Source of the DNA: Reclinomonas americana ATCC 50394
Lineage: Eukaryota
DNA length: 35,733 nt
Reading direction: 5' to 3'
Assembly (NCBI GenBank): GCA_048213135.1
Contig: PS015609.1
Coordinates: forward strand, 31,442-67,174
In this document: piece after piece, positions 13,451 through 29,008 of the stretch
Numbering within the stretch: the first letter of the stretch is position 1
Layout: the number at the start of each line of letters is the position of its first letter
Program-made: the position numbers and the translations under genes
The notes under the pieces: generated by a model
The model's database searches: none
Seen by the model: the letters and a program-made list of their open reading frames with translations, nothing else
Told to the model about the DNA's origin: nothing

Positions 13451-14548
13451 TTACAAGTGCAGCTCAGGGTCTACGCGACATCGATGCACCACGACTTCAG
13501 TGTCCTCCACGATGAAGCATCGCAGCACCATCTCCGGCAGGCAGCGCGAGTCCAGCACGGCCTCGTCTCCTGCATCCTGCATCTCTTGCACTGCGCTCAT
13601 GGCCTCACGTGCTTTGGCAAGCTCGTTCCGAGCAAACACGAACGGCGTACACCACACCCACGCATTGTGGTCATGGCACCCACTGACAATGTGCTGCCCG
13701 TCGGGAGTGACGGCGACAGACAACACCGAGTCAGTGTGTCCCTTCAGCTGCTGCACCTCCTCGCCACTTGCCACTGACCACACTCGTACCGACATGTCCG
13801 CACTCCCACTCACTACGTGCTGACCAAAGGGAGTGACGGCGACAGTGGTCACCCGGCCTGCGTGCCCCACAAGCCGCTGCACTTCCTCTCCAGTCGCCAT
13901 CGACCACACGCGCACTGTGCTGTCAACACTTCCACTCACTGCGTACTGACCATCGGGCGTGACGGCGACAGCTCGAACTGTTTCAGTGTGTCCCTCCAAC
14001 CGTCTCACTTCCTCGCCACTCGCCAGTGACCACACGCGCACTGTTTCGTCTCCGCTACCACTCACAATGTACTGGCCATCGGGAGTGACAGTGACACACC
14101 ACACCGGCTTTGTGTGTCCCTCGAAACATCGCTCCTCCTCGCCACTCGTCAGCGACCACACACGCACTGTCTTGTCAAGACTCCCACCCGCAATGTGTTG
14201 ACCGTGGGGAGAGACGGCGACTGAAAGCACCACCGCAGAGTGCCCTTCCAACCGTCGCACTTCCTCGCCACTCGCCAGTGACCACACGCGCACTTTGCAG
14301 TCGCTGCACCCGGTCACAACGTGCTGCCCGTCGGGGGTGACAGCGACAGAGTACACCCATCCTGCGTGTCCCACAATCCGTCGCACCTCCTCTCCACTCA
14401 CCAGTGACCACACTCGTACTGTGGCGTCGTGACTCCCACTCACGACGTGCTGCCTGTCGGGAGTGACAGCAACACAAAGAACGCGGTTTGTGTGTCCAAG
14501 CAGTACGTGCTTGCGGAGGAAGAGAGGATGACGGGCAGTGGCTGACAT
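13451..14548 (-). CDS. 7-blade WD40 protein with conserved C-terminal tail (copy 1), intronless
   Basis: Seven 42-aa repeats GH..V..VAVTPDGQHVVSGS.D.TVRVWSL and the tail LDSRCLPEMVLRCFIVED. Start chosen by alignment with copy 2 (MSATARHPLFLRKHVL vs MTLPPLFLCKHVL). Confidence 0.88.
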   Translation of the reverse strand: MSATARHPLFLRKHVLLGHTNRVLCVAVTPDRQHVVSGSHDATVRVWSLVSGEEVRRIVGHAGWVYSVAVTPDGQHVVTGCSDCKVRVWSLASGEEVRRLEGHSAVVLSVAVSPHGQHIAGGSLDKTVRVWSLTSGEEERCFEGHTKPVWCVTVTPDGQYIVSGSGDETVRVWSLASGEEVRRLEGHTETVRAVAVTPDGQYAVSGSVDSTVRVWSMATGEEVQRLVGHAGRVTTVAVTPFGQHVVSGSADMSVRVWSVASGEEVQQLKGHTDSVLSVAVTPDGQHIVSGCHDHNAWVWCTPFVFARNELAKAREAMSAVQEMQDAGDEAVLDSRCLPEMVLRCFIVEDTEVVVHRCRVDPELHL

Positions 14549-14779
14549 GCTTGTGAAGAGGAGAAGGAGAGCGTGTGCCTGTGCGTGCGAGAGAGAGATG
14601 GGATGAGAGTGTAGTCCTGAGTGTGTCCCGCAGCGACTCGAAGTCGCAGAAGCGTTAAGAAGGCATTCATTCTTGGAGGCTCGTTCACAAACACCATTCA
14701 TGCAAGCACCTCGGAGAGAGGGAGACGGAGAGAGAGAGAGGGGCACGAATGTATTGTTTTCAAGGGAGTAAGAAGCAGG

Positions 14780-15874
14780 TTACAGATGCAGCTTAGGGTC
14801 TACGCGACATCGATGCACCACGACTTCAGCCTCCTCCACAATGAAGCATCGCAGCACCATCTCTGGCAGGCAGCGCGAATCCAGCACGCCTTCGTCTTCT
14901 GCATCACGCATCTCCTGTACCGCGTGCATGACCTCGAGCGCTTTGACGAGCTCGAGGCGAGCAAGACCACACGGAGTGCTCCACACACGCACTGTCTCGT
15001 CAAAGCTGCCACTGACGATGCGCTGCCCGTCGGGAGTGATGGCGACAGACAACACCGAGTCAGAGTGTCCCTCCAGCCGCTGCAACTCCTCGCCACTCGC
15101 CAGAGACCACACCCGCACTGTACGGTCGTCACTCCCACTCACCACGTGTTGACCATCGGGTGTGATGGTGACAGACTCCACTGCCTCAGTGTGACCCTCC
15201 AGCCGTCGCACTTGTTTTCCATTCTCCAGTGACCACACCCGCACTGTCTTATCGTATGCCCCACTCACGACATGCCGACCATCGGGCGTGACAACGACAG
15301 AGCGCACCCCACCAGTGTGCCCCCCCAGCTGCTGCACCTCCTCACCAGTTGCCAGCGACCACACCCGCACCGTCTTGTCAGAAGAACCACTCACAACGTG
15401 GCGACCATCGGGAGTGACAACAACACTGTGCACCCACTTTCTGTGCCCCTCCAGCCGTCGCACCTCCGCGCCACTTGCCAGCGACCACACACGCACAGTC
15501 TTGTCATGACTGCCACTCACCACATGCTGCCCGTCGGGCGCAACAGCAACAGCATACACAAAGGCAGTGTGCCCCTCCATGCGCCGCACCTCCTCACCAC
15601 TCGCCAGCGACCACACGCGCACAGTCTCATCATCATTCCCGCTCACAGCATGCTGCCCATCAGGCGTGATAGCAACAGCCCACACACGACCTGTGAACTC
15701 CTCCATGCGCTGCACCTCTTCTCCTCCACCACGCACCAGTGACCACACGCGCACTGTGCTGTCCCAGCTCCCACTTGCAATGTGCAGGCCATCGGCAGAG
15801 ACAGCAACAGATCGCACAGCATACGCGTGTCCCATTAGCACATGCTTGCAGAGGAAGAGAGGAGGTAGAGTCAT
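14780..15874 (-). CDS. 7-blade WD40 protein with conserved C-terminal tail (copy 2), intronless
   Basis: 364-aa ORF with seven WD40 repeats; its tail is nearly identical to that of copy 1. Confidence 0.9.
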   Translation of the reverse strand: MTLPPLFLCKHVLMGHAYAVRSVAVSADGLHIASGSWDSTVRVWSLVRGGGEEVQRMEEFTGRVWAVAITPDGQHAVSGNDDETVRVWSLASGEEVRRMEGHTAFVYAVAVAPDGQHVVSGSHDKTVRVWSLASGAEVRRLEGHRKWVHSVVVTPDGRHVVSGSSDKTVRVWSLATGEEVQQLGGHTGGVRSVVVTPDGRHVVSGAYDKTVRVWSLENGKQVRRLEGHTEAVESVTITPDGQHVVSGSDDRTVRVWSLASGEELQRLEGHSDSVLSVAITPDGQRIVSGSFDETVRVWSTPCGLARLELVKALEVMHAVQEMRDAEDEGVLDSRCLPEMVLRCFIVEEAEVVVHRCRVDPKLHL

Positions 15875-15934: not shown

Positions 15935-17724
15935 ATGTGAGCCGCCACAACTCATCCTTCCCTCTCACTGACACTCACTGTCTCTCTCTCTCTCTCACAC
16001 ACACACAGGGGCGCAGGTCAATCTGTGAAGTTGGACGCACTGGCGAATGTCGACGACGTGAAGACCAAATGTGCGTGTTTTTGTGTTCCATTACTCAACT
16101 CACACACACACTCACTCACACTCACACACAGTGGGCGAGGATGCTGTGGCGGAGATGCACGCCACCTTCACTGCGCTGGCCAGTCGTCGTGGAGAGCGTG
16201 AGACCATGTTGAGTGGAGAGTTTTTCCCGCGCTCTCTCTTTTGTGTCTTACTCTTTGTCTCTGTGTGTGTGGCAGCACTGAGGCCGGCTTCCTGTCCATG
16301 CTTGAGGAGATCCCGGCAATGGCCGCGGCCACCAAGGTGACTCAATAAGTGTCGCGCACGCTCACTTGTTTTTGTTTGCTGATATGGCACATATATCATT
16401 CTTTCACAGGATATGCTCAAGGTCGGTGCTGCATCTTGTGTCGTTGTTGTTGTCTTCTGCGAGTTCAATATGTGCGTTGTGCAGCTCATGTTCAATGCCA
16501 TGGACCTGGACGGCGATGATATGTACATGTCGCTGTTTGTCTGTCATTGTTGCTGTGAGTGCTGACTTGTGTGTTTTTTCGTGCACGAGTGTTGGATTTC
16601 AATGGTGCATGCGTGTCTGTGTATGCTCATGGTGTGCGGTGATGCTGATGGCTCACTGGCGCGTCGTGGCAGAGTTCCTCACTGGCATGTACGTGGTGAC
16701 GGCGCCGGAGGCCGGTCGCGAGAAGATGATGCTGATGTTCCGCAGTTGCGTGCCAGCTTGATGTGCCAAGTGTGTGTCGTGCGGCGGCAGCTGATGATGG
16801 AGTGGCAGTCTTCGATGCCAACCGCGACGGCTTTGTGTCCAAGACCGAGGCCAAGAAGATCTTCAAGGTGGCCATCAACATGGCGCAGTCTGTCATGGTG
16901 GCCATGATGCAGGGCATGGTGAGCAGTGGGCGCGGCGTGGCGTGGCGGGTGATGTGCTCTCCTACCGCTCACACACTGCGATGCAGATGAGCATGTCGGC
17001 GGCGGAGGCCAAGCGCGCTGTCAAGGCCATGATGCCGGCGGTCGACGAGATCGTGGACTCGCTCTTTGCCAAGATGGTTTGTTTTGACGTCGCGGCTTGT
17101 TGGTGGATTCTATCTCTCCCCTTCCCTTCTTGCCTCGTTTCCTTCACTGCATGGGTTCCCTATTGAGCTTTTCTTTCTCTCCTCTCGACCTGCACTCCTG
17201 CTTGTAAGTGGCAGATCTGCGTTTGCACTGCTGCACCGAAGAGCACATGCACAACGGGATCAGCATTTCAGTCGTTCTTTCTTCCGCTCTTTCCTTGACC
17301 ATTCACTCCTCACCTTTCCTCGCTTGTGCGCGCAACTGAAGCTATCCGATCTGCGCTCGCACCGGCACATCTGAGCGCAACAAAAAAAGCGTCCTTCTCA
17401 CACCATTCACTCCTCGCGTCTCCTCGCTTGTCCACAACTGATGCATCGCTTGTGCAGAGAGCACATCTGAACACTGCAGAAGCGGTAGCTCTCCTCGTTC
17501 CTCCACTCCTTCTTTTCCATTCACTCCTCACCTTTCCTCGCTTGTGAGCGCCGTTGAAGCAATCAGATACATTGCAAATCTGACCGCTTCCCCTTCTCCT
17601 TCAGGACACCAACCAAGACGGCAAGATCTCCCTGGAGGAGTGGCTGAGCCAGCCCGAGTTCGAGGACGAGAAGGTCGTGTCGCTGTTGGGCTCTCTCGGA
17701 CTCATGCAGTCGTCGTCGAGCTAG
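15935..17724 (+). CDS. N-myristoylated EF-hand calcium sensor (NCS/calcineurin B-like), 11 exons
   Basis: Spliced translation starts MGAGQS and contains EF loops DLDGDGVLDFNE, DANRDGFVSKTE and DTNQDGKISLEE. It needs 12-nt (16410-16421) and 18-nt (16587-16604) microexons and an AT-AC intron at 16519-16586. Confidence 0.85.
17290..17550. repeat. Degenerate intronic repeat, 3 copies about 105-115 bp apart
   Basis: ccattcactcctc...tcctcgcttgt occurs at about 17299, 17403 and 17517, and gcacatctga is also repeated. Confidence 0.7.
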
Positions 17725-25150: not shown

Positions 25151-26266
25151 ATGCTTACGAAGGTGCGCCACGCGTGATTCTCTTTCGTTGTCGCTGGTGC
25201 GTCTCACCGCATGTGGGTGGCGCAGATCTTCAAGGGACACACTGCTGTTGTGAACTCTGTCGCCGTCACCCCCGATGGCCGACACATCGTCAGTGGCAGC
25301 GCTGACCGCACAGTGCGTGTGTGGTCACTGACGAGTGGAAAGAAGGAGCGGCGGCTGGCAAGACACACTGGAGGGCTGAACTCGGTCGCTATCACTCCCG
25401 ATGGCCTGCACATTGTCAGCGGCAGTGATGACGAGACAGTGCGAGTGTGGTCATTGACAAGTGGCAAGAAAGTACGACAGTTGAAAGGGCACATCGGGGG
25501 CGTGTCATCCGTTGCTGTCACCTCTGACGGTCAGCACGTGGTCAGTGGGAGCTATGACAACACAATCCGAGTGTGGTCACTGGCCACTGGCGAAGATGTG
25601 CGACAGTTGGAGGGACACGCTGACTGCGTGTTCTCAGTCGTCGTCACACCCGACGGTCTGCACGTTGTGAGCGGCAGCGCTGACAAGACCGTGCGACTGT
25701 GGTCACTGGCCACTGGCGAGGAGGTGCGACGATATGAAGGACACTCTGACTATGTGTTGTCTGTCGCCGTCGCTCCCGATGGTCAGCATGTCGTGAGCGG
25801 GAGTTACGACATGACGATTCGCGTGTGGTCACTTGCGAGTGGTGAGGAGGTGCGGGGGTTGGTGGGGCACACTGACACAGTGGCTTCTGTCGCCGTCACA
25901 CCCGATGGTCAGTTTGTCGTGAGCGGGAGTCACGACATGACTGTGCGAGTGTGGTCACTTGCCGACGGCGAGGAGGTGCGACGACTGGAGGGGTGCACTA
26001 TCATGGTGAATTCTGTCGCCGTCACTCCCGATGGTCAGCGTATTGTGAGTGGAGCCGGAGATCGCACGATTCGAGTGTGGTCCACGGTGCGTGCACTTGC
26101 CAGGCAGGAGCTTGCAGTCGCACGGTTGGCAGTGCAAGCCGTCAACGAGTTGCTGGTTGACGAGGATGATCGCGATTGGATCCTGGTCGATGTCGTTCTG
26201 CGGTGTTTCGTGCTGGAGGATGCACAGGTGGTGAAGCATCGGGCCCCGGGGTGGCATGAAGCGTGA
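25151..26266 (+). CDS. 7-blade WD40 protein (copy 3); exon 1 25151-25162, intron 25163-25225
   Basis: MLTK|IFKGHT..., seven WD40 repeats and the tail DWILVDVVLRCFVLEDA. The first-exon/intron layout is the same as in copies 4 and 5. Confidence 0.88.
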
Positions 26267-26485
26267 TGAGTGAGTTCACTGTCAAACAAGTGAAGCGCTA
26301 CTGAGTGTGAAGTGAAGTGCTCCAGTGTTCCGAGACGATAGTTGTCGTGTCAGTCGGCAAAGACCCACTTGCACCACTTTCATATCCACGTACCATCAGG
26401 GAGAGAAAATGGCGCGAAGCGCGCAGCGAGGACGGAGACAGAAATCGCGAGCCCAATTCACACAACACACACACGCGAGAACAGG

Positions 26486-27594
26486 ATGATCACAAAGGTG
26501 CGTGCGTGTGCACACCCTTCTCGTCAGTTCCCGGTGCGTCTCACCGCTGGTGGGTGGCGTAGGTCTTGAAGGGGCGCACTGGTGTTGTGATGTCTGTCAC
26601 CGTCACTCCCGATGGCCTGCACATCGTCAGTGGCAGCGCTGACCGCACAGTGCGAGTGTGGTCTCTGACGACTGGCGATGAAGTGCTGTGGCTAGAAGGA
26701 CACGCTGGAATGGTGTTCTGTGTCGCTATCACTCCAGACAGTTCGCACATAGTAAGCGGGAGCTATGACGACGCAGTGCGAGTGTGGTCACTGGCGACAG
26801 GCGAGGAGGTGCGACCGTTGGAGGGACACACTGGCGCCGTGTACTCGGTCGCCGTCACCCCCGATGGTGAGCATGTTGTGAGTGGAGGCGATTACGGAGT
26901 AGTGCGACTGTTGTCACTGGCAACTGGCGAGGAAGTGCAACGATATGAGGGACACGCAGGAATCGTGTTGTGTGTCACCATCACTCCCGATGGTAAGCAC
27001 ATTGTGAGCGGGGGTGACGACGAAACGGTGCGACTTTGGTCACTGGCGAGTGGTGAGGAGGTGCGACAGTATAATGGACACACTAACTGTGTGCCGTCTG
27101 TCGCCGTCACTCCCAATGGTCAGCAGATTGTGAGCGGGAGTCAGGACATGACTGTGCGCGTGTGGTCACTGGCCACCGGCGAGGAAGTGCGCCGGATGGT
27201 GGGGCATGCTGGAGATGTGCAGTCTGTCGCCGTCACACCCGACAGTCAGTTTGTCGTGAGCGGGAGTTACGACAAGACTGTGCGAGTGTGGTCACTTGCC
27301 GACGGCGCGGAGGTGCGGCGACTGGAGGGACACGCTATGTGGATATTCTCTGTTGCCGTAACCCCCGATGGCCAGCACATTGTCAGTGGAGGCGGAGACG
27401 ACACGAAACGAATGTGGTCCACACCGCATGGACTCGCCCAGCAGGAGCTCGTGGTTGCGTGGTCGGCTGTGCAAGCCATCAACGAGCTCCTTGTTGACGA
27501 GGATGATCGCGATTGGATCCTGGTGGATGTCGTGCTGCGGTGCTTCGTGCTGGAGGATGCAGAGGTGGTGCAGGGTCGTGCCACTGGGTGGTAG
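26486..27594 (+). CDS. 7-blade WD40 protein (copy 4); exon 1 26486-26497, intron 26498-26562
   Basis: MITK|VLKGRT...; the acceptor is TAG where the paralogues have CAG. It ends GW* three codons early because of a small insertion (taggta). Confidence 0.85.
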
Positions 27595-27883
27595 GTACAT
27601 GAAAGTTACTTGCCTCCCGGTGCCAGACTGAGTGAAGCGCTGATCAGTGTGAAGTGAAGTGCCACCCTCCACCATGCAAGTCAATGTTTCATTGTTCGAG
27701 ACGATATCGATCGGCAAAGATCCACTTCCCCGACCTTCATACTCGTGCATCTACATTTGTGCGAGCGCAGGATGTTAACGTGGCGGCAGCTTTGCAGCTT
27801 GAAGAACGAGAGAAAATGGCGCGAGGAGTGAGGACAAACGCGAGCCCAATTCACACTCACTCACACACACACGCGAGAACAGA

Positions 27884-29008
27884 ATGATCACAAAGGTGCG
27901 TGCGTGCGTGGCATCCTTCTTGTCTGTTCCCGGTGCGTCTCACCGCTGGCGGGTGGCGCAGATCTTCAGGGGACACACTGCTGATGTGATGTCTGTCGCC
28001 GTCACTCCCGATGGTCGTTACATTGTGAGTGGCAGCAATGACCACACAGTGCGTGGGTGGTCACTGGTAAGTGGAGAAGAGGAGTGGTGGCTGGAAGGAC
28101 ACACTGACTCGGTGAATTCCATCGCCGTCACTCCCGACGGTCAGCACTTTGTCAGCGGCAGTGATGACGGTACTGCACGCGTGTGGTCATCGACGAGTGG
28201 CAAGGAAGTGCATCAGTTGGGAGAACACACTGGCATGGTGTACGTGCAGTCTGTCGCCGTCACTCCCAATAGTATGCACGTGGTGAGCGGAAGCTTTGAC
28301 AAGGCCATACGAGTGTGGTCTGTGGCGACTGGCGAGGAAGTGCGACGGTTGGAGGGACACACTGGCTCCGTATACTCGGTTGCCGTCACCCCCGACGGTC
28401 GACACGTTGTGAGTGGGAGTCGGGACGAGACCGTGCGACAGTGGTCGCTGGCAACCGGCGAGGAAGTGCGACGGTATGAGGGACACGCAAGCTGGGTGTC
28501 GTCTGTCGCCGTCACTCCCGATGGCCAGTACATTGTGAGCGGCGGCGGCGACAAAGCAGTGCGAGTGTGGTCTCTGACAAGCGGGGAAGAAGTTCTGCGA
28601 CTGGAAGGACACGTTGGAGCGGTGTCGTCTGTCGCCGTCACACCTGATGGTCAGTTTGTCGCGAGTGGGAGTTACGACAAGACTGTGCGAGTGTGGTCAC
28701 TGGTGAGTGGCGAGGAGGTGCGGCGACTGGAGGCACACACTATGTGGATATTCTCTGTTGCCGTAACCCCCGATGGTCAGCGCATTGTGAGTGGAGACAG
28801 TGACGACACGATACGAGTGTGGTCCACGGCGCGTGCACTTGCCCACGAGGAGCTCTCGGTCGCACGTTCGGTTGTCCAGGCCATCAACGAGCTCCTTGTT
28901 GACGATGATGATCGCGACTGGATCCTGGTTGATGTCGTGCTGCGGTGTTTTGTGCTGGAGGATGCAGAGGTGGTGGAGCGTCGGGCCCCGGGGTGGCATG
29001 AAGCATGA
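27884..29008 (+). CDS. 7-blade WD40 protein (copy 5); exon 1 27884-27895, intron 27896-27961
   Basis: MITK|IFRGHT..., seven WD40 repeats and the same tail. The upstream intergenic DNA resembles that of copy 4, indicating tandem duplication. Confidence 0.88.
   Translation: MITKVRACVASFLSVPGASHRWRVAQIFRGHTADVMSVAVTPDGRYIVSGSNDHTVRGWSLVSGEEEWWLEGHTDSVNSIAVTPDGQHFVSGSDDGTARVWSSTSGKEVHQLGEHTGMVYVQSVAVTPNSMHVVSGSFDKAIRVWSVATGEEVRRLEGHTGSVYSVAVTPDGRHVVSGSRDETVRQWSLATGEEVRRYEGHASWVSSVAVTPDGQYIVSGGGDKAVRVWSLTSGEEVLRLEGHVGAVSSVAVTPDGQFVASGSYDKTVRVWSLVSGEEVRRLEAHTMWIFSVAVTPDGQRIVSGDSDDTIRVWSTARALAHEELSVARSVVQAINELLVDDDDRDWILVDVVLRCFVLEDAEVVERRAPGWHEA

What the first reader, a model, noticed from the sequence alone, without database searches (positions are those of the whole stretch)
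16519..16586. AT-AC intron lacking minor-spliceosome signals in the EF-hand gene
Seen: no GT-AG pair restores this EF loop. Removing ATATGTAC...TTTTTTCGTGCAC (68 nt) joins GAT G|GA GTG TTG GAT TTC AAT G|AG and gives a textbook loop DLDGDGVLDFNE with Gly at position 6. The 5' end ATATGT is not the U12 consensus ATATCCTT, there is no TCCTTAAC branch site, and a U2-like GCTGAC lies about 21 nt upstream of the 3' end. The donor keeps -1 G and +5 G like the main donor class. Inference: this is a rare U2-type AT-AC intron, or a U12 intron converted to U2, consistent with recognition dominated by -1G/+5G rather than by +1G.
Basis: partly seen in the sequence, partly recalled or inferred. Interest (0 to 1): 0.75.

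Follow-up and report, generated by a model that had tools for sequence, protein, structure and literature searches.

The report
Major-type AT-AC intron in jakobid gene
A 68-base stretch in a calcium-sensor gene of a probable jakobid flagellate starts with AT and ends with AC in both gene copies but carries the signals of ordinary introns, so it is likely removed by the main splicing machinery, a rare but already known kind of intron that seems to recur in this genome.

Summary
Confirmed on DNA; no RNA covers the junction. Window 16519-16586 (ATATGT...GCAC) has the same ends in the second haplotype, where it is 70 nt, so its body is non-coding. No GT/GC-AG choice restores the EF-hand loop. A homology-blind gene model trained on this genome picks these ends at least 18 nats over any canonical parse. 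The genome keeps U11, U6atac, a weak U12 and textbook ATATCCTT/TCCTTAAC introns. This intron fits none of their signals but pairs with U1, U6 and U2. It is a U2-type AT-AC intron, a known class (15 in human). The scan noted six others here earlier; I found four more candidates among 7 hand-picked loci. A screen of about 3,690 introns showed no excess over decoys (upper bound about 0.2%), so the class recurs but enrichment is not shown. Origin is open. ATATGT is the predicted U12-to-U2 'trapped' product, and 0 of 5 such introns are phase 0. But a paralogue has a GT-AG intron one base away. An EST-derived protein places the organism near Reclinomonas americana. New member of a known kind.

The parts
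16519..16586 (+). AT-AC intron, 68 nt, phase 1 in the Gly6 codon of EF-hand 2
16516..16527 (+). 5' splice site ATG|ATATGTACA: -1G, +3A, +5G, +6T; pairs U1 (6 Watson-Crick pairs with standard U1; 7 plus 1 wobble with variant U1) and U6 ACAGAGA (+4 to +7); no fit to U11 or to the U6atac box at +5/+6
16560..16566 (+). U2-type branch site TGCTGAC, branch A at 16565; all six positions pair with U2 GUAGUA (4 Watson-Crick, 2 wobble; read by eye)
16567..16586 (+). T-rich tract and 3' end GTGCAC, the genome's GCAG consensus with C for G
   Evidence: GCAG ends 1,930 of 3,687 modelled introns
16485..16518 (+). exon 6, first half of the EF-hand 2 loop
16587..16604 (+). exon 7, 18-nt microexon carrying loop positions 6-12
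16605..16672 (+). following GT-AG intron, 68 nt, phase 1
16745..16808 (+). intron with the genome's shifted GTTGCG donor; its junction is read through in an EST-derived protein
15935..17724 (+). host gene: 11 modelled exons, 218 aa, N-terminal MGxxxS motif and three EF-hand loops; NCS/calcineurin-B-like (family label partly recalled)

Best explanation
The 68-base segment has AT and AC ends in both haplotypes and is likely a real intron removed by the major (U2-type) spliceosome. Shown in sequence: the ends, the non-coding body, a U1/U6-type donor and a U2-type branch site. Inferred: U1 binds the donor through -1 and +2 to +7 with +1 unpaired; U6 ACAGAGA takes over at +4 to +7; U2 bulges A16565; in the second step the first A and last C replace the usual G-G non-Watson-Crick contact, which is why both ends must differ together. 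The strong donor (+3A, +5G, +6T, +7A) likely compensates for the lost +1 pair. The product is an intact EF-hand 2 in a probably myristoylated calcium sensor.
For: Ends kept and a 2-nt indel in the body between haplotypes. Only recognised ends that restore the loop, which then aligns without gaps to a paralogue's loop. Ab initio margin at least 18 nats. Donor scores +5.8 bits as main class and -15.9 as U12 class; length 68 against a median of 69; G|GTATGT occurs in 38 of 3,687 modelled introns. True U12 introns here keep RTATCCTT and CCTTRAC and are 73-90 nt. U6 pairs +4 to +7, U11 only one wobble, the U6atac box only +4. GC-AG donors show the same +3A compensation, 26 of 55 against 257 of 2,097. 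Known precedent: Sheth 2006 (PMC1557818, passages); A-C terminal interaction (PMC11585973, passages).
Against: No transcript spans the junction. The donor is only at the 30th percentile of modelled donors, not as strong as the metazoan ATAAGT consensus quoted in PMC5029451. The genome has a minor spliceosome and its U6atac box is divergent, so its specificity is uncertain. The model's scores come from its own predictions, not from RNA-verified introns.
Confidence: 0.8

Rival explanations
1. The intron is real but is still spliced by the minor spliceosome despite degenerate signals.
For: AT-AC ends; first four bases ATAT; U11 and U6atac genes over cut-off and a weak U12; the U6atac 5'-site box is divergent.
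Against: The genome's U12 introns keep full signals; +5G and +6T mismatch U11 G7 and U6atac G15/C14; branch match 5 of 8; length typical of major introns.
Confidence: 0.07
2. A canonical GC-AG intron (16513-16589) is used instead, and EF-hand 2 lacks three residues.
For: It is the best canonical parse; GC-AG introns make up 55 of 3,687 modelled introns.
Against: Donor scores -0.8 bits at best and the acceptor is GAG, 6 of 2,416; disfavoured by at least 18 nats; it would leave the missing loop codons intact inside the intron by chance.
Confidence: 0.06
3. The intron is retained or the microexon skipped in most transcripts, or the gene is decaying.
For: Major-type AT-AC introns are described as suboptimal (PMC2831892 section 16); the EST-derived ORF starts downstream of this intron.
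Against: Both haplotypes keep all frames and splice ends; skipping needs an AT-AG pair; the EST is chimeric, so its start says little.
Confidence: 0.05
4. Origin A (compatible with the best explanation): direct conversion of an AT-AC minor intron, ATATCC to ATATGT, trapped with AT-AC ends.
For: ATATGT is the two-step product (C5G, then +6T) proposed by Lin 2010 (PMC2831892 section 16). 0 of 5 G|ATAYGT AT-AC introns are phase 0, like 0 of 7 U12 introns, against 114 of 250 comparable GT-AG introns (about p 0.05 by my arithmetic). 5 of 7 modelled U12 introns here are AT-AC.
Against: No U12 branch remnant. +3A is also favoured in GC-AG donors. ATAT was partly built into my search patterns. A weaker sixth candidate (L212) is phase 0. 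Human relatives searched (CHP, NCS1, KCNIP, HPCA, NCALD, PPP3R, CIB, TESC) are absent from the Olthof 2019 minor-intron gene list, where PTEN and SCN4A are present. All 87 converted introns in U12DB have GT-AG ends (PMC2831892 section 15).
Confidence: 0.45
5. Origin B: derived from a major GT-AG intron, possibly by a one-base slide from the genome's shifted donor class.
For: The nearest paralogue found (52 identities) shares the phase-1 intron near the N-terminus and has a shifted-class GT-AG intron in the same loop one base upstream, in the same G-x-T-R-x-G register (chance about 0.02 by my rough count, uncorrected). An earlier unchecked note reports an AT-AC intron orthologous to a GT-AG intron in a tandem paralogue (e1-7397423).
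Against: Needs changes at both ends, plus a one-base indel for a slide; only 1 of the paralogue's 6 introns is shared exactly.
Confidence: 0.3

Closest known systems
U2-type AT-AC ('AT-AC II') introns: human SCN4A/SCN5A, human and fly TAF2, hypothesised chicken parvalbumin (Sheth 2006, PMC1557818, passages; de Wolf, bioRxiv 10.1101/2020.08.06.239418, passages)
   Same: AT-AC ends with a major-type donor (+5G, +6T) and no U12 branch site, in a genome that also has minor introns.
   Different: Donor is ATATGT rather than the metazoan ATAAGT consensus (PMC5029451, passage); host is a probable jakobid with a variant U1; not yet confirmed by RNA.
U12-type AT-AC introns
   Same: Terminal dinucleotides, first four bases, non-zero phase.
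   Different: No ATATCCTT, no TCCTTAAC, shorter than this genome's U12 introns (68 against 73-90 nt).
'Trapped' AT-AC U12-to-U2 converts proposed by Lin et al. 2010 (PMC2831892, section 16 read)
   Same: Exactly the predicted +5G, +6T donor with AT-AC ends kept.
   Different: No orthologous U12 intron has been shown for this one.
Yeast RPL30 nested AT-AC intron (Gould 2016, PMC5029451, passages)
   Same: AT-AC splicing without U12 signals.
   Different: That is a 1-2% side product in a species without a minor spliceosome; this one is needed for the reading frame.

Membership tests
U2-type AT-AC intron | AT and AC terminal dinucleotides | tested here: met
   Genomic, both haplotypes; only recognised ends that restore the loop. 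Not RNA-verified.
U2-type AT-AC intron | Donor matches the major consensus apart from +1 | tested here: met
   +5.8 bits in the main class; pairs U1 and U6.
U2-type AT-AC intron | U2-type branch site and 3' tract | tested here: met
   TGCTGAC, A at 21 nt, inside the learned 13-25 nt range; pairs U2 GUAGUA.
U2-type AT-AC intron | Excised in transcripts at these ends | not testable with these tools
   No run listed; the EST-derived protein starts downstream.
U2-type AT-AC intron | Splicing depends on U1/U2/U6, not U11/U12/U6atac | not testable with these tools
   Needs snRNA blocking experiments.
U12-type intron | 5' site RTATCCTT | tested here: not met
   ATATGTAC; -15.9 bits.
U12-type intron | Branch site TCCTTRAC | tested here: not met
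   Best 5 of 8, whereas the genome's U12 introns keep it.
U12-type intron | Minor snRNAs in the genome | tested here: met
   U11 and U6atac over cut-off, 2 copies each; U12 2 copies below cut-off; U4atac not found.
U12-to-U2 converted intron | U12 intron at the same codon and phase in an orthologue | not testable with these tools
   No orthologous gene DNA reachable; the paralogue has a GT-AG intron one base away.
U12-to-U2 converted intron | U12-like phase bias and donor remnant | tested here: inconclusive
   0 of 5 phase 0 (1 of 6 with the weaker L212); ATAT partly selected by my patterns.

The most novel reading that the evidence does not exclude
In this jakobid, major-type AT-AC introns form a recurring class (dozens to more than a hundred, several times the human share) that arose by direct conversion of its mostly AT-AC minor introns. 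The variant U1 (A8, G5), blind to +1 and accepting U or C at +4, would make ATATCC-to-ATATGT converts splice well and keep them. The genome would then be a natural test bed for the 'trapped conversion' route, proposed but not documented.
Probability: 0.2. Interest if true: 0.65.

Novelty: new member of a known kind. Interest (0 to 1): 0.32.

Why it matters
Alone it is one more case of a rare known intron type that ordinary gene finders mis-splice (here the canonical parse deletes part of a calcium-binding loop). It matters more as one of up to about eleven candidates in a genome that has both spliceosomes and two U1 RNAs, in a lineage (Discoba) where a 2023 survey found no minor introns (PMC10639083, passage). 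That makes it possible to test how major-type AT-AC introns arise and which U1 reads them.

Tried and rejected
RNA: no RNA holder listed, so no reads were laid. Sequencing error: rejected by the second haplotype. Donors downstream of 16547, such as GTGAGT at 16555: rejected because the 2-nt indel would shift one haplotype. No close paralogue: only the two alleles matched. Genome-wide enrichment by raw counts: not seen (88 rows against 94 decoy rows); by the gene-model screen: not seen (2 U2-type AT-AC calls at 8 nats against 12 calls in the 8 decoy double-mismatch classes). Candidates rejected: L226, L230, L231. Homologue search for L228 found nothing; its TMEM104 label and the IQCA1, Rav1/DMXL and CBL labels are recalled (Pfam gave only AAA and a weak Aa_trans). 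My recollection that human CHP and GPR137 genes carry U12 introns was not borne out. Supplement searches in PMC6865273, PMC6800510 and PMC7507305 were blank without a positive control and are uninformative; the supplement of PMC12956336 could not be read; bioRxiv supplements are closed and might list major AT-AC introns. Literature searches listed no paper on this in jakobids; subscription papers are not covered. No fold was run because the spliced protein is not a contiguous reading of the window.

Full report
Observation. Window 16519-16586 is 68 nt, ATATGTAC to CGTGCAC. It lies in an 11-exon gene at 15935-17724 encoding a 218-residue protein with an MGxxxS start and EF-hand loops (Pfam EF-hand hits on exons 9 and 11 below cut-off; weak PDB hits to neurocalcin, hippocalcin, KChIP and calcineurin B). 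No combination of 36 GT/GC donors and 4 AG acceptors gives a full loop. Eight single excisions of any ends restore the loop pattern; only AT-AC has recognised ends and Gly6. The second haplotype keeps both ends and has 3 substitutions and a 2-nt insertion in the body.

Independent test. I trained a gene model on 1.04 Mb of this genome without homology. It learned short introns (median 68-69 nt), a GCAG 3' end, a CT[C/G]AC branch site 13-25 nt from the end, and a quarter of donors in a shifted GTTGCG class. With all 15 non-canonical end pairs allowed under one penalty, it chose 16519-16586 up to 18 nats (16 in the other haplotype); its best canonical alternative is GC-AG 16513-16589, which deletes three loop residues. 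Among about 3,690 introns in 1.37 Mb of other non-N sequence, 3 non-canonical calls survived 18 nats, none AT-AC, and all three lie in simple repeats.

Which spliceosome. The genome has U11 (2 copies) and U6atac (2) over Rfam cut-off, U12 (2) below it and no U4atac hit, plus U2, U6 and three U1 genes. A pattern for U12 introns gave 26 rows against 15 for the reversed control, with about seven loci of textbook form; 7 modelled ones are 73-90 nt, 5 AT-AC, none phase 0. The window intron scores +5.8 bits as a main-class donor and -15.9 as U12. It pairs with standard U1 at six positions, with the variant U1 (arm AUACGUAACUU) at seven plus a wobble, and with U6 at +4 to +7, but with U11 by one wobble and with the U6atac box only at +4. 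Its branch site pairs U2 GUAGUA at all six positions (by eye); the best U12 branch match is 5 of 8. The mechanism is inferred from known spliceosome chemistry: first and last intron bases form a non-Watson-Crick pair, and A-C can replace G-G (PMC11585973, passages; Parker and Siliciano 1993 seen only as cited). GC-AG donors in this genome show the same +3A compensation (26 of 55 against 257 of 2,097). AT-AG calls were rare (1 of 3,709 at 8 nats), so +1G is not simply dispensable.

How common. Pattern lists gave candidates; I fetched 7 loci chosen by eye, so this is not a random sample. Four were supported by the model (L224 at least 20 nats, L229 at least 16, L225 and L228 at least 12) and three rejected. 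All four have G|ATAYGT donors, 64-76 nt lengths and U2-type branch sites; support is model-based, with recalled protein motifs only. Overall pattern counts showed no excess (88 against 94 decoy rows); the +3A subset did weakly (22 non-self rows against 8, expected 9.2; p 0.022 by rows, 0.055 by loci; rows counted by eye). Scaling 3 supported loci by the 61 of 3,687 introns that fit the pattern's 3' part gives 0.15% (0.03-0.45%), probably too high because weak-ended introns should fit strong patterns more often. The direct screen found 2, 1 and 0 at 8, 12 and 14 nats with sensitivity 29, 21 and 17 of 40, an upper bound near 0.2%. Published shares are 0.008% in human (15 of 185,966; PMC1557818 Table 1) and 0-0.07% across 24 genomes (PMC7367187 Table 2, section read). 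The class recurs here; enrichment is not shown. Six other cases in this genome come from earlier unchecked notes, which I could not re-test and which may overlap my candidates or each other.

Origin. Lin et al. 2010 proposed that such introns are trapped converts, C5G then +6T (PMC2831892, sections 15 and 16 read), which gives exactly ATATGT; they also found that all 87 observed converts have GT-AG ends. For conversion: 0 of 5 phase 0 against 114 of 250 in comparable GT-AG introns. Against: no branch remnant, the weaker candidate L212 is phase 0, the human relatives searched are not on the Olthof 2019 minor-intron list (supplement file 1, positive controls found), and the nearest paralogue has a shifted-class GT-AG intron one base upstream in the same loop. 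I put conversion at 0.45 and a GT-AG origin or slide at 0.3.

Organism and expression. The in-frame exon-9 query hit one protein, from an EST in EukProt labelled Reclinomonas americana, 92% identical, a jakobid in Discoba. It reads through the exon 8-9 junction, showing the gene or a close orthologue is transcribed and the shifted GTTGCG intron is spliced as modelled. It starts downstream of the AT-AC intron and is chimeric, its tail matching other contigs at 82-98%. Larue and Roy 2023 report no minor introns in Discoba (PMC10639083, passage); this genome has them, as earlier notes also say.

Verdict. A real-looking major-type AT-AC intron, new member of a known kind, unconfirmed by RNA. Interest 0.32, raised a little by its recurrence and by the two-U1, two-spliceosome setting.

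Noticed in passing
L011, L012 1501-1654 (G000:C429, C479); L013 (G000:C343): Two U1 types: standard arm and a variant arm AUACGUAACUU (G5, A8) complementary to the shifted GTT donor class, 901 of 3,687 modelled introns. Already noted by the scan.
   Followed up: partly
L005, L006 1501-1632: U6atac with CACCGA in place of AAAGGA; G15 and C14 fit +5C and +6G of the shifted GTTGCG donors better than +6 of the genome's U12 introns. No standard U6atac or U4atac was found.
   Followed up: partly
L224 (G000:C5:240140-240215, -), L225 (C528), L228 (C70), L229 (C7529): Four more candidate major-type AT-AC introns with G|ATAYGT donors, in an AAA ATPase, a transporter-like gene and two other genes.
   Followed up: partly
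L212 455-537 (G000:C119): Weaker AT-AC candidate, AAG|ATACAC, phase 0, about 12 nats, in another EF-hand gene; lacks +5G.
   Followed up: partly
G000:C12 near 408,600 (L164): CBL-like paralogue sharing the N-terminal phase-1 intron and carrying a GT-AG intron one base upstream of the AT-AC position: possible one-base intron slide.
   Followed up: partly
G000:C12:19107-19176 (-); G000:C20:136814-136896 (+): Model calls a GT-AT intron with a shifted donor (16 nats) and an AT-AT U12 intron (14 nats); an in-frame AC lies 3 nt further on in the latter.
   Followed up: no
window 16410-16421 and 16587-16604: Two microexons (12 and 18 nt) in one gene; exons of 18 nt or less are 2.5% of 3,085 modelled internal exons. 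The AT donor may hinder skipping of the 18-nt exon (inference).
   Followed up: no
window 13451-15835 (-) and 25211-29008 (+): Five similar WD40-repeat genes in two tandem clusters, mostly single-exon, sharing a C-terminal motif.
   Followed up: no
window 17077-17604: The gene's last intron (528 nt) holds degenerate repeats and differs by large indels between haplotypes.
   Followed up: no
G000:C1: A contig of more than 1.7 Mb with AT-rich, non-intron-like pattern hits; possibly bacterial DNA in the assembly.
   Followed up: no
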